Below are positions 12,481-61,944 of a DNA stretch of 64,000 nucleotides, in pieces. The DNA lies in assembly GCA_951406725.2 (NCBI GenBank), contig OX597815.1, positions 187,054,001 to 187,118,000 on the forward strand. Direction: 5' to 3'. The stretch is from Octopus vulgaris. Taxonomy: Eukaryota. A program made the position numbers and the translations under genes. Within the stretch, counting starts at the first letter, position 1, and every line of letters starts with the position of its first letter. The notes beneath the pieces are model-generated. The model had not been told where the DNA came from, did no database searches, and saw only the letters and a list, made by a program, of their open reading frames with translations.

Positions 12481-12549
12481 ATGGAAGCTTTCAGTGTTCA
12501 TGGCCTTGTTGGCAAAATTATCGACAGAGTTCCTCAGAAACAGCTGTCT
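12481..12549 (+). CDS. PEBP: PEBP gene 1, coding exon 1 (MEAFSVHGLVGKIIDRVPQKQLS), phase-0 donor
   Basis: ATG at 12481 and donor GTAAGT at 12550; same 69-nt length as gene 2 exon 1, with 15/23 aa identical. Confidence 0.88.
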
Positions 12550-15500
12550 GTAAGTGGCACATTTTTGGCAACTTATATATTATTTTGTTTGCTATTTAGG
12601 AAAAATAATTTGAAGATTGTGGAATGCCAACTTTTATCATTCATCTATAGAAAATGATAGCATTCTTTCCTTTGCTTTTGTTCCATTGCTTTTATCATTT
12701 TAAATCTGTATTCCGCTTTTTTTTTTCTTTAGCTTTTTATTTGTTTTTTGCTTTGTTAAAAACTATTCATTATTAAATCATATTTTTGTTTAACATTTTA
12801 AATTTTGTCGAGCATTTTGAGTTGCAGCTATTTCATTAGCAATATTAATTATTTATTAGTTTAGAATTACTTCCAAGCACAAATGAATTTGTGGATATTT
12901 TTGCTTTAATTTTAAAAGAACAAAATCTTAGATTTTATCATATTTAGTATTAAAAAAGATAAATAAAGATCATGCATAATCATACATATATTATCAAATG
13001 CAGAAAATCTGAGGTATTCCTAAATTGGCACAAGAGCAAAAACAAAAGGGAAATGGAAGATTTAATTATGTAGAACGATAGTAAACCATTTCTGATTTGC
13101 TAATTACAAACGCTTTTTGCTTTTGGGTACAATGAGAAAGTCATTCATAAAGCTAGAGTTCAACAAAGTAAAATTTATATTTTTGTCTGGCTAAATTTTC
13201 TTAATAGAAGTCGTACAAGATTCTATCAAAAATTTGTTTATTTGTCTATTTTAATCAAAATTCACAAGTCTTTCAGACAGAAACCAACCAAATATGAAAT
13301 GAAGTTTATCAAGAATCTCTTTTACCTATTCCCCCAGTTCACATTTTCCAAATTCTTTTGGAACACCATATTTTGTTTTAGACAGAGAAAGTGTAACTAA
13401 TTTATGGAGAACAAATTATGCCATTACTCTGGTGATTATATTGTCACCCAACTAATTGGTTATATCTTTTCCTATTCCAAGGAATGGCTTTACGTCTAAA
13501 ATAGATATCTTTATGAAAGACTCAGAGATCTAGTTTCTATTATAACTTGAGGCTTAATTTCCCAAAGCGGGAGTCTCTACGTGGACACTCAACCTGCAAA
13601 ACATAGCAACTAAAACACCCTCAAATTGCTGGAGAATACTTATAGAGGGAAAAAAACAAGATAGAATAATCATATTCTCTTTTCTCATATTACTTATTTT
13701 ATCACATTTCCCCTCTAAGTATTCACTCTATTTCGTTTTTTGATTTGGTTTGCAAGATTCTTTATATGAGTTCGTGTGTTGAAGCATATTCTGTTGTGTT
13801 TGGGGAGAGTCATTTTCTTTTTGTGCCTTATAATTTAACACACTCACCGGTAAAATTTCCTCTTTTTTTCTTATTTTTATTTTCCTAAAATTTTCGTTGC
13901 GTCTTGCAACCTTTTCAATAGTTTTGACTCCATAAGGAAAAAAGGGAAAATTTTACCGGTGAGTGTGTTATATTATAAGGCACAAAAAGAAAATGACTCT
14001 CCCCAGACACAACAGAATATTCACTCTATCGTAGGCATATAAATATTGTCCTTCTTGTCACCTCACTTTGTCTGCCTGCACTATCATTTCCCCTACAGCC
14101 CCCTGCCCCACTCTCTATATTTCTGTTGGGTCAACTGATTCCTTGCCCCACCAGCAGTCTTGCTGTGCCAGCCAACAATTATTTCTCTCTCTACACACAC
14201 ACACTCGCACACACATATATATATTCTTTTTTTTTTCACTTGTTTTAGTCATTTGACTGCAGCCATGCTGGAGCACTGCCTTAAAGGGGCTTAGTCAAAG
14301 AAATCAGCCCCAGGACTTATTCTTTGTAAGCCTAGTACTTATTCTATCAATCTCCTTTTGCAGGGACAAACACACACACACACACACATATATATATATA
14401 ATATAAAAAATACAAATACATACATACATATATATACATATCAAACTCCCTCATTCACCAAATGCTACATATCAGAGGAAGTTTCTAATTATTTATGGTG
14501 TAGCAAAGCCAATGGTGGTGCCCCAGCATGACCACAGATTTTGAACTGAAACTAGTTAAAGAGTTAGAGTTATATACACAACCCACACACACACACATAT
14601 ACATACATACATACATACATACATATATATATATATCTCTCCCAATCTATCAATCACCCATCTGTCTGTAATCTATTCTGATGCAGCTTTTGTTATAACA
14701 CTCTATTACTCTTTTTTCTGCCTCTCTCGGTACAGTCAATGTTTTTCTCCTACCACATTCCACCAACATCACAGAGGAACTAGAAAATAAAAAAGGACAC
14801 TTCAAATGGCCTTTAATAAAACTGATCCTCATTGTCAACAATGAAAACGTTGACCAATTTATCCTGTTTTGGTTTAATTATCATCGTTATTTTTTATTTT
14901 TATTTTCTTAATTACTATTAGATTCGTTATGGCAACACCGAAGTTCATCCAGGGATGAATCTCACCCCATCAATGACTAAACATCAACCACACATCAAGT
15001 TTGAAGCTGAGGCAAATTCTTATTATACCTTAATTATGAATGGTAAGTAATTAATTGTTCTGCATATCTGACGGTTCTCATGACATCTCATTGTCTTTAA
15101 CAATATAAAGATGACTTTAGGGTGGCAAGCTGGCAGAATCGTTAGGACGCCGGGCAAAATGCTTAGCGGTATTTCGTCTGCCGTTATGTTCTGAGTTCAA
15201 ACTCCACCAAGGTCAACTTTGCCTTTCATCCTTTCGGGGTTGATTAAATAAGTACCAGTTATGCACTGGGGTCGATATAATCGACTTAATCCCTTTGTCT
15301 CTCCTTGTTTATCCTCTCTGTGTTTAGCCCCTTGTGGGTAGTAAAGAAATAGGTATTTTGTCTGCCATTACGTTCTGAGTTCAAACTCCGCCGAGGTCAA
15401 CTTTGCCTTTCATCCTTTCAGGGTCAATCAAATAAGTACCAGTTATGCACTAGGGTCGGTGTAATTGACTTAAACCCTTTGTTTGTCCCCTCTATGTTTA

Positions 15501-60800: not shown

Positions 60801-61944
60801 CTGCCAGCTCGCCGCCTTATATAGAACATATATATCAGCATCCGTCCGTCTCGAGAGACGATGGTGTAGCTCAGAAAAGGTGGGTTTATCTGCACTTCCT
60901 GGTGTGGCTGTGCAGACCAATCATCGAGTGGCAGTCTCTACCACATCTGGTGCAAGTGAAAGGGGACAAGAGCTGTGGTTGCTGCTGCTGCTCCTTTCGC
61001 CTGGTTCTCTTTAGTTTGGCAGTAGTGGTCCTCAGGTTCTCTGCTGTCATGGCACCGTGCTTTTGGGGTTGATAAATTAAGCACCAGGGAAACACTGGGG
61101 TTGATGTAATCGACTAGACCCCTCCCCCAAAATTTCATGCCTTGTGCCTTTAGCAGAAAGGATTGGGTGACACCTTTCGGTCATGAATGTCCATAGGATT
61201 GCACCTAGAAAGTTACCCTCCAAAGCACAAGTCCAGGCAAGGTTGTTTTACGGAAGACCAGCAGTCGCCCATGCATACCAGCCTCTCCTATCCATGCCAC
61301 TGATGTTATCCAAGGGGCCGATACAGCTTGGCACCAGTGACATTGCAACTCATTTCTACAGCTGAGTGAACTGGAGCAGTGTTAAATAAAGTGTCTTGCT
61401 GAAGAACTCAACACACAGCCCGGTCCAGGAATCAAACTCACAACCTAACGATTGCAAGCACGATGCTCTAACCACTGAGCCATGCACCTTCACACAGTAG
61501 AAAGGATTATCATTATTATTATTATTATTGCCTATTTCCACAGTTAGGTGTCCCTCCTCTCACCAAACACTATAAAAATTTATAAGAGCAATAACACTAT
61601 TTGAAAACAGGTATAGCATTTTGGCAGCGGGGTGTTTGTCCATATATGGTATTCTGAAATCATTTGATACAAAAATAAATTCCAGGGTCAAAAATTAAAA
61701 CATCAGAATTCCTTTTTTCAATAAAAAATAATGTCAAAGTTTTCTCTTCTATTTACTGTTAAATATTTTTCTCCATCTCTTTCCTTGTGTTGCAATTCAT
61801 AAACAGATCCAGATTCTCCGAGTCGAAATGATCCCAAGTTTAGTGAGTTTAACCATTGGCTTGTGGTCAATATCCGTGAAGGGGATGTCTCTAAAGGGGA
61901 GACGATGTCTGAATATGTTGGACCACTGCCGGCAAAAGGTTCAG
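45791..61944 (+). CDS. PEBP: PEBP/RKIP-family protein, tandem paralog (gene 2), 3'-partial; join(45791..45859,59479..59599,61807..>61944)
   Basis: Spliced frame: MEAFNTHGLVNRIVDRLPSKQLLVRYDNVEIEPGMTITPSQSRNPPQILFDSHPREYYTLIMNDPDSPSRNDPKFSEFNHWLVVNIREGDVSKGETMSEYVGPLPAKGSG. Exon lengths 69/121/138 and phases 0/1/1 are identical to gene 1; 64/110 aa identical by hand count; no stops or frameshifts. Exon 4 is not in the window. Confidence 0.92.
46018..47168. repeat. 96-bp tandem repeat, ~12 copies, in gene 2 intron 1
   Basis: Unit TGTGAGGATAAGCCAATGGTTCTCAACTGGCGTTCACATGACCCGTAGGGGCCTGTATAAGATTTTGTCGTTAAAATTTGTCTGAAATAATATGGT recurs every 96 bp (46019, 46116, 46212 ... 47076). Confidence 0.97.
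47088..47343. mobile_element. hAT (Charlie/MER5-like) MITE whose left end seeds the 96-bp array
   Basis: TIRs CAATGGTTCTCAAC ... GTTGAGAACCACTG; the last array unit continues into the MITE body. Confidence 0.7.
47435..48150 (+). mobile_element. CR1/L2-type LINE 3' remnant
   Basis: Degenerate RT-end peptides 'LQLDLD.MQQ...W...L.VDKCTIMHFGRKNP' and 'GH.YKVRKQ...DFRKHFF.LRV.E.*NKLP' across frameshifts. Confidence 0.6.
50217..50345 (+). mobile_element. 5'-truncated RTE-clade LINE tail with (AG)n end
   Basis: Translates 'DTGMDMASLKEAAQNRTDWRTLIQRVTENRLRLSG*'; 11-bp TSD GTTTACTAATC at 50206-50216 and 50346-50356. Confidence 0.75.
50897..51296. mobile_element. hAT-type MITE nested in piggyBac-like MITE 50738-51366
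   Basis: Ends CAGAGACATGC / GCACGTGACTG; 8-bp TSD ATCCAATC / ATCTAATC (50889-50896, 51297-51304). Confidence 0.65.
51572..52139. mobile_element. RTE-clade LINE insertion with 5' inversion
   Basis: The minus strand (51580-51888) encodes the RTE C-terminus (RRVQFAGHCCR...DREVWR) with a (GAT)n tail. The plus strand (51901-52139) encodes the RT core (DFADDVAL...VGLYLNEAKTEYI...YKYLGSYI). TSD AACAGCACAGT at 51561-51571 and 52140-52150. Confidence 0.85.
56621..56723 (-). ncRNA. Candidate minimal HDV-like ribozyme at the 5' end of a retroelement fragment
   Basis: Minus strand: P2 TCGAGGGC / GCCCTCGA, P3 ACC/GGT, L3 TCCCAGT, P1(3') GTTGGGC, then G-TCAA-C-GAA (J4/2). The P1(5') strand is only partly retained (CCAAC, at the edge of a (CCA)n tract). 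Confidence 0.45.
58380..59405 (-). mobile_element. Penelope-like element remnant (linker + GIY-YIG endonuclease), interrupted by a SINE
   Basis: Minus-strand peptides 'VMFIEATAHRELARRFRKALKETKHNIKIVEKPGNSVRSQL' and 'CKVC...NCRTRKVVYSIRCIEGAC...IYIG', typical of PLE endonucleases; boundaries approximate. Confidence 0.75.
59479..59599 (+). CDS. PEBP: PEBP gene 2, exon 2
   Basis: Acceptor TCTCAG ending 59478; donor GTAAGT at 59600; VRYDNVEIEPGMTITP...YYTLIMN. Confidence 0.92.
60586..60819 (-). mobile_element. tRNA-derived SINE family A (Nin-domain-like), representative full copy
   Basis: GGCGGCGAGCTGGCAGAAACGTTAGC...GAGTTCAAATTCC...GCCTTTCATCCTTTCGGGGTCGATAAA...; 17-bp TSD TATAGAACATATATATC (60569-60585, 60820-60836). 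Other copies at approx. 277-470, 4801-5023, 15121-15525, 20508-20728, 22867-23260, 28529-28762, 29670-30340 (x3), 41904-42134, 43529-43940, 52506-52900, 54262-54495, 55167-55588, 58738-58927, 59643-59875. Confidence 0.85.
60838..61035 (-). mobile_element. RTE/BovB-like LINE 3' end with terminal C2H2 zinc finger
   Basis: 'FTCTRCGRDCHSMIGLHSHTRKCR*' followed by a short 3'UTR (catcgtctctcgagacggacggatgc). Confidence 0.65.
61807..61944 (+). CDS. PEBP: PEBP gene 2, exon 3
   Basis: Acceptor AACAG ending 61806; donor GTTAGT at 61945; DPDSPSRNDPKFSEFNHWLVVNI...YVGPLPAKGSG. Absent from the ORF track. Confidence 0.92.

What the first reader, a model, noticed from the sequence alone, without database searches (positions are those of the whole stretch)
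12481..61944. Tandem PEBP pair: an O-crystallin-like gene beside a more canonical paralog, a possible record of lens-crystallin recruitment by duplication
Seen: two same-strand PEBP genes about 16 kb apart, with identical exon lengths (69/121/138) and intron phases (0/1/1) but only 64/110 aa identity and unrelated, TE-filled introns, so the duplication is old. Known (from memory): the octopus lens protein O-crystallin is a PEBP-family member of about this size, and gene 1 reads almost exactly like it. Inference: gene 2 is an O-crystallin sister that I do not know to be described. It shares derived features with gene 1 (MEAF..HGLV start, SEF.HW instead of REWHH, YVGPLP), so it could be a second lens crystallin or the less-derived intermediate. 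The array may continue beyond the window.
Basis: partly seen in the sequence, partly recalled or inferred. Interest (0 to 1): 0.72.

Follow-up and report, generated by a model that had tools for sequence, protein, structure and literature searches.

The report
Octopus O-crystallin and its tandem twin
Two neighbouring octopus genes encode the known lens protein O-crystallin and an old, transcribed duplicate that is just as remodelled, so the pair likely records a lipid- and kinase-binding protein that became a lens protein first and was duplicated afterwards.

Summary
Gene 1 (12481-29421, 182 aa) is the O-crystallin ortholog: 155/182 identical to Enteroctopus O-crystallin, tree support 100/99. 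Gene 2 (from 45791; exon 4 lies just past the window; 184 aa) is an intact, spliced, old paralog (103/182 identical, synonymous sites saturated). No third copy lies within 100 kb.

The label 'more canonical paralog' fails. Both genes keep 9 of 16 RKIP pocket residues (outgroup median 15) and 62-64 of 93 conserved sites (median 87). They share 13 derived sites on one long stem and are rich in Met and Arg, as crystallins are. Four genome searches found no canonical PEBP1.

A published squid single-cell table lists two PEBP genes as markers of lens-secreting cells, without comment in the text. Their orthology to this pair is untested.

Best reading: the cephalopod PEBP1 was remodelled for the lens and then duplicated, so gene 2 is probably a second O-crystallin. 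Lens expression in octopus could not be tested. New member of a known kind; moderate interest.

The parts
12319..12326 (+). TGACGTCA (CRE/ATF-type palindrome; motif name recalled), 162 nt upstream of the gene 1 ATG; function untested
12373..12379 (+). TATA-like box of gene 1
   Evidence: consensus match only
12481..12549 (+). Gene 1 (O-crystallin ortholog) exon 1, 69 nt coding
14922..15042 (+). Gene 1 exon 2, 121 nt
23384..23521 (+). Gene 1 exon 3, 138 nt; DADFP in place of DPDAP, EFQHW, GPLP
29201..29421 (+). Gene 1 exon 4 to the stop codon; AATAAA at 29587
   Evidence: held by 14 RNA-like runs of 4 studies
45627..45633 (+). TATA-like box of gene 2
   Evidence: consensus match only
45791..45859 (+). 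Gene 2 (O-crystallin paralog) exon 1, 69 nt coding
59479..59599 (+). Gene 2 exon 2, 121 nt
   Evidence: joined to exon 3 in one contig each of runs X1 and X9
61807..61944 (+). Gene 2 exon 3, 138 nt; DPDSP, EFNHW, GPLP
61945..64000 (+). Gene 2 intron 3, running off the window end. Exon 4 (to the stop codon) follows outside the window at L003:775-1001 = G000:C2:187118775-187119001
   Evidence: exon 4 and its 3' UTR are covered by contigs of runs X2 and X11

Best explanation
Gene 1 is the octopus O-crystallin and gene 2 is its intact, spliced tandem duplicate, equally remodelled, which likely serves as a second PEBP-type lens protein. Shown: both keep the PEBP fold signature and D70/H86/H118/Y120 but share a rebuilt ligand pocket (W84F, G110L, A73 and P112 replaced), about three times the usual Met and more Arg. 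Inferred: the single ancestral PEBP1 came under lens-type selection (packing, refractive increment, loss of Raf-type binding) on the cephalopod stem, and then duplicated. Lentigenic cells would make both proteins as soluble lens filler beside S- and Omega-crystallin. Either copy may keep a side role elsewhere (gene sharing).
For: Orthology: 155/182 to Q9Y1K8 O-crystallin; clade 100/99. Shared stem: 100/100, length 0.51-0.54, about twice the branches to either copy (0.25-0.28). 13 sites are derived in 11 of 11 clade rows. Pocket 9/16 in both window proteins, against median 15 in 63 outgroup rows (residue list from PMC8539980). Met is 3.8-6.6% in 11 of 11 clade rows; outgroup mean 1.6%, maximum 3.1%. 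R/(R+K) is 0.40-0.65 against 0.30. Octopus TIM plus aldolase exons hold 7 Met in 469 residues against 18 in 366 (Fisher p 0.007). Lys-to-Arg change and high Met are crystallin traits (PMC4047532). In Euprymna berryi two PF01161 genes mark lentigenic cells: 47% vs 6% and 42% vs 13.5% of cells, similar to Omega-crystallin at 34% vs 10% (PMC12240821 Table S4). Gene 2 contigs occur in 4 of 4 tested runs that hold gene 1, from 4 studies.
Against: There are no octopus tissue data: run tissues are hidden, and whole animals would hold any two genes. The squid genes have no sequence in the table, so their orthology is untested. An O. vulgaris hemocyte assembly lists a further PEBP4-like transcript, so the squid pair could include another subfamily. 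Squid Pebph-1 is also a 'Blood' marker. The refractive shift is small: predicted dn/dc 0.194-0.196 vs 0.1923 +/- 0.0008, and the gene 2 ortholog (0.1942) is below the outgroup maximum of 0.1947 (residue values recalled); gamma-crystallins reach about 0.20. Gly+Ala+Pro falls and FYINK rises slightly, so AT pressure may contribute. The Met control rests on two enzymes from other families. With no canonical PEBP1 found, one copy may have to carry the old role. No Nautilus sequence was available to tie the stem changes to the origin of the lens.
Confidence: 0.55

Rival explanations
1. Duplication first, recruitment second: gene 2 keeps the general PEBP1/RKIP job in many tissues and only gene 1 became a crystallin. 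The shared changes are cephalopod-wide drift or a new ligand.
For: Only these two PEBP1-class genes were found. Gene 2 keeps DPDxP and P73 and is slightly closer to the outgroup (46.9% vs 45.3%). It is slightly more conserved among Octopus species than gene 1 (175/184 vs 171/182 to O. bimaculoides). A squid PEBP marks blood cells.
Against: Gene 2 lost the W84, G110, P112 and Y181 equivalents and has the higher Arg/Lys ratio of the two. Both squid PEBPs mark lentigenic cells.
Confidence: 0.27
2. Gene 2 is expressed in lentigenic cells but is a low-abundance regulator or lipid-binding helper, not a bulk crystallin.
For: Marker status in squid shows enrichment, not protein mass. The core D70/H86/H118/Y120 is kept. 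Only one O-crystallin is named in the records seen.
Against: Its Met and Arg shift is like that of the O-crystallin copy.
Confidence: 0.15
3. Gene 2 is a decaying or silent duplicate.
For: None found.
Against: Open frame, GT..AG introns, 181/184 and 175/184 identity to two other Octopus species, spliced contigs.
Confidence: 0.02

Closest known systems
O-crystallin of Enteroctopus dofleini (Q9Y1K8 / AAD29640.1)
   Same: Gene 1: 182 aa, 155/182 identical, no gaps, same clade. Gene 2: same exon plan as gene 1, shared derived sites.
   Different: Gene 2 is a paralog (104/182). Lens abundance and lens-only mRNA of O-crystallin are recalled from Zinovieva et al. 1999, which was not held; PMC13643694 names it only as a taxon-specific cephalopod crystallin.
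PEBP1/RKIP and invertebrate 'protein D2' / F40A3.3 proteins (Pfam PF01161)
   Same: Pfam match over cut-off. The model of the O. sinensis gene 2 ortholog superposes on Tm16 (TM 0.94) and human PEBP1 (0.91).
   Different: Only 9 of 16 pocket residues kept; W84F and G110L in both; Met and Arg enriched.
Existing database models: O. sinensis XP_029658559.2 and XP_036367920.1; O. bimaculoides XP_014774319.1 and XP_014774203.1
   Same: These are genes 1 and 2 (182/182, 181/184; 171/182, 175/184). In each species both lie on a contig of the same length.
   Different: They are named 'protein D2(-like)', with no link to crystallins.
S-crystallins (from GST) and Omega-crystallin (from ALDH) of cephalopods
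   Same: An existing protein co-opted for the lens and expressed in lentigenic cells; S-crystallins also duplicated (PMC12240821).
   Different: A different protein family; two copies here against 193 S-crystallins in E. berryi.

Membership tests
PEBP family (PF01161) | Profile match above the curated cut-off | tested here: met
   60 and 63.5 bits vs 24 for the O. sinensis orthologs P0006 and P0009
PEBP family (PF01161) | PEBP fold | tested here: met
   P0006 model pLDDT 93; TM 0.91-0.94 to the best solved PEBPs. Gene 1 was not folded.
Canonical PEBP1/RKIP | DPDxP motif | tested here: inconclusive
   Gene 2 has DPDSP (met); gene 1 has DADFP (not met)
Canonical PEBP1/RKIP | 16-residue ligand pocket (list of PMC8539980) | tested here: not met
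   9/16 in both genes; 58 of 63 outgroup rows have 14 or more
Canonical PEBP1/RKIP | Binds phosphoethanolamine or Raf-1 | not testable with these tools
   Needs a binding assay
O-crystallin | Orthology to Q9Y1K8: gene 1 | tested here: met
   155/182; same cluster; clade 100/99; the only other PEBP1-class gene found scores 104/182
O-crystallin | Orthology to Q9Y1K8: gene 2 | tested here: not met
   Paralog on its own 100/99 branch inside the same 100/100 clade
Lens crystallin | Abundant soluble lens protein | not testable with these tools
   No lens proteome found; accession search gave 0 papers
Lens crystallin | Lens- or lentigenic-enriched mRNA | tested here: inconclusive
   Two squid PEBPs are lentigenic markers, orthology untested; octopus run tissues hidden
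Lens crystallin | Composition shifted to high-refraction residues (a trait, not a definition) | tested here: met
   Met above the outgroup maximum in 11 of 11 clade rows; Arg/Lys raised; dn/dc shift small

The most novel reading that the evidence does not exclude
O-crystallin is not an octopus-only oddity but one member of an overlooked third coleoid crystallin family. The only PEBP1/RKIP gene was rebuilt for the lens on the coleoid stem and then duplicated; both copies are made by lentigenic cells in octopus and squid, and these animals have no canonical RKIP left.
Probability: 0.4. Interest if true: 0.62.

Novelty: new member of a known kind. Interest (0 to 1): 0.46.

Why it matters
Whether crystallins are recruited before or after gene duplication is a long-standing question in lens evolution. 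This pair makes it testable with two genes, a clear outgroup and lensless Nautilus as control, and the sequence evidence points to recruitment first. It would add a third family to the cephalopod lens, which a recent atlas describes as two classes. It also suggests that octopus lacks a canonical RKIP. Gene 1 itself is known, and both proteins already sit in databases under uninformative names.

Tried and rejected
1. Further tandem copies: none in 100 kb on each side. Four genome searches gave only this pair, a divergent PEBP exon on C11 and, in three of the four, an mL38-like exon on C5 (name inferred from sequence). These searches did not place the hemocyte PEBP4-like transcript, so divergent members can be missed.
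2. No RNA holder was on record as RNA; the runs are guesses, supported by exon-exon contigs.
3. Gene 2 exons had no cover in runs X21 and X24 or X22 and X23, which also hold next to none of gene 1's words. Contigs show presence, not absence, so this is not used as evidence.
4. Dating against the octopus-squid split: unresolved. AU tests rejected none of three groupings (p 0.095, 0.23, 0.32). The unnamed clusters P0013 and P0014 have no taxon on record.
5. Shared promoter sequence: only a repeat and chance-level words in 3 kb upstream.
6. Literature: 'O-crystallin' occurs in 3 papers, none on this locus by title (only one was read); other searches gave nothing on cephalopod PEBP by title or abstract start. 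Supplements of PMC9839350, PMC9712504, PMC13218726 and PMC6397165 had no PEBP row. Files of PMC12240821 and PMC4199593 were cut when stored, one file of PMC9712504 was unreadable, and bioRxiv supplements are closed, so unseen rows may bear on expression.
7. The 50%-cluster search gave no further member with all clade motifs among the best 150 of 5389.
8. Earlier scan findings: none.
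Full report
1. Observation. Gene 1 has four exons (12481-29421) and encodes 182 aa. Gene 2 starts at 45791; its fourth exon begins 775 nt past the window end, giving 184 aa. Exons 1-3 have equal lengths and phases. Identity is 64/110 and 103/182; pS is 0.79, i.e. 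saturated. No third copy lies within 100 kb.

2. Identity. The gene 1 cluster holds Enteroctopus dofleini O-crystallin (Q9Y1K8) and O. vulgaris models of the same sequence. Gene 1 is 155/182 identical to O-crystallin and 182/182 to O. sinensis XP_029658559.2. Gene 2 is 181/184 identical to O. sinensis XP_036367920.1 and 104/182 to O-crystallin. An Argonauta protein groups with gene 1 (100/99), so the duplication predates the Octopus-Argonauta split. Gene 2 is transcribed: one contig each in runs X1 and X9 joins exon 2 to exon 3 across the 2.2-kb intron, and contigs in X2 and X11 cover exon 4 and its UTR. That is 4 of the 4 gene 1 holders tested, out of 14 RNA-like holders; tissues are not shown.

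3. Family context. Four searches of the genome (Pfam, gene 2 ortholog, abalone PEBP1, and a 74-row profile) returned only exons of this pair, a divergent PEBP exon on C11 and an mL38-like exon on C5. A canonical PEBP1 should have scored best with the abalone query; none appeared. Divergent members can be missed. In trees of 45 and 22 rows, genes 1 and 2 and two unnamed Logan clusters (P0013, P0014) form a 100/100 clade on a stem of 0.51-0.54. The order of the four lineages is open. P0013 and P0014 may be squid or cuttlefish proteins, but no taxon is on record.

4. Gene 2 is not more canonical. I aligned 11 clade rows with 63 outgroup rows, chosen by hand as mostly single-domain proteins from the lists (one search listed 120 of 2457 hits); long and multi-domain rows were left out. 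Of 93 outgroup-conserved columns, gene 1 orthologs keep 62-64 and gene 2 orthologs 64; the outgroup median is 87, minimum 70. Thirteen columns are derived in all 11 clade rows, 9 only in the gene 1 group and 8 only in the gene 2 group. Of 16 RKIP pocket residues both window proteins keep 9. Both carry W84F and G110L; gene 1 breaks DPD to DAD, and gene 2 loses Tyr181. The fold of the gene 2 ortholog is intact.

5. Crystallin-like composition. Met is 3.8-6.6% in all 11 clade rows against 1.6 +/- 0.6%, and R/(R+K) is 0.40-0.65 against 0.30 +/- 0.07. Octopus TIM and aldolase exons have 1.5% Met. Predicted dn/dc rises from 0.1923 to 0.194-0.196 using recalled residue values, about the level of vertebrate betaB2-crystallin (0.194-0.196; PMC4047532) and well below gamma-crystallins. 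Against this: the 11 rows are related and amount to one event, AT pressure may add to the shift, and gene 2's dn/dc is inside the outgroup range.

6. Expression lead. Table S4 of PMC12240821 (bobtail squid retina) lists Pebph-1 (EB11074) and Pebph-2 (EB11732), both PF01161, as lentigenic markers, with values 0.85/0.47/0.06 and 1.37/0.42/0.135. I read these as Seurat logFC, pct.1 and pct.2; the header does not spell them out. Omega-crystallin has 1.30/0.34/0.10 and an S-crystallin 1.76/0.74/0.18. Neither the paper nor its preprint mentions PEBP in the main text. The name Pebph probably reflects a top hit to the F40A3.3 homolog, the name NCBI also gives gene 1 orthologs; this is inference. Pebph-1 also marks blood in the adult optic lobe (Table S5).

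7. Mechanism. Shown: orthology, tandem order, an intact spliced gene 2, shared pocket and composition changes, and no canonical PEBP1 found. Inferred: these changes reflect lens selection on the single ancestral gene, duplication came later, and gene 2 is a lens protein (0.55). Rivals: gene 2 keeps the general PEBP1 role (0.27), or is a minor lentigenic regulator (0.15).

8. Novelty. Gene 1 is known. I found no paper describing gene 2 or the pair (open-access library only, and the 1999 O-crystallin paper was not held).

Papers seen: passages of PMC13643694, PMC3594755, PMC8257504, PMC4047532, PMC8539980, PMC6635378 and bioRxiv 2022.05.26.490366; passages and supplement rows of PMC12240821; supplement searches only for PMC9839350, PMC9712504, PMC13218726, PMC6397165 and PMC4199593; all others as search listings. 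Verdict: real, a new member of a known kind, interest 0.46.

Noticed in passing
G000:C2:186983307 (L020, about 83 kb upstream of gene 1 exon 1): A six-codon exon followed by GT matches the N-terminus of the O. vulgaris model CAI9718673.1, which splices it to gene 1 exon 2. It may be a distal alternative first exon or a model artefact.
   Followed up: partly
window 46018-47171: 12 copies of a 96-bp unit (95% alike) in gene 2 intron 1, with a 372-codon open frame on the minus strand.
   Followed up: no
window 35441-35981 (-): Helix-turn-helix fragment (Pfam HTH_28) between the two genes, with a nearby Tc1/mariner-like transposase motif (recalled).
   Followed up: partly
window, just downstream of the TATA-like boxes at 12373 and 45627: An 11-mer near each TATA-like box is shared by the two promoters; chance level (E 3.9).
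   Followed up: partly
G000:C11:97744812-97745090 (-), L028: A divergent PEBP exon that also reads GPLPP; no other exon found in 40 kb.
   Followed up: partly
L006:3-1064 (-) and L005: Probable next gene about 30 kb downstream: a 354-codon open frame, no Pfam match, Atlas hits below 0.9.
   Followed up: partly
G000:C9:97224218-97225403 and C15:30309877-30310650: Compact aldolase copies with stops, probably retrocopies of the C30 gene.
   Followed up: no
proteins P0014 and P0034 (unnamed): This lineage has also lost His86, which 63 of 63 outgroup rows keep (pocket score 6/16).
   Followed up: no
window 39159-40126: A long degenerate TGC repeat (about 320 units) between the genes.
   Followed up: no
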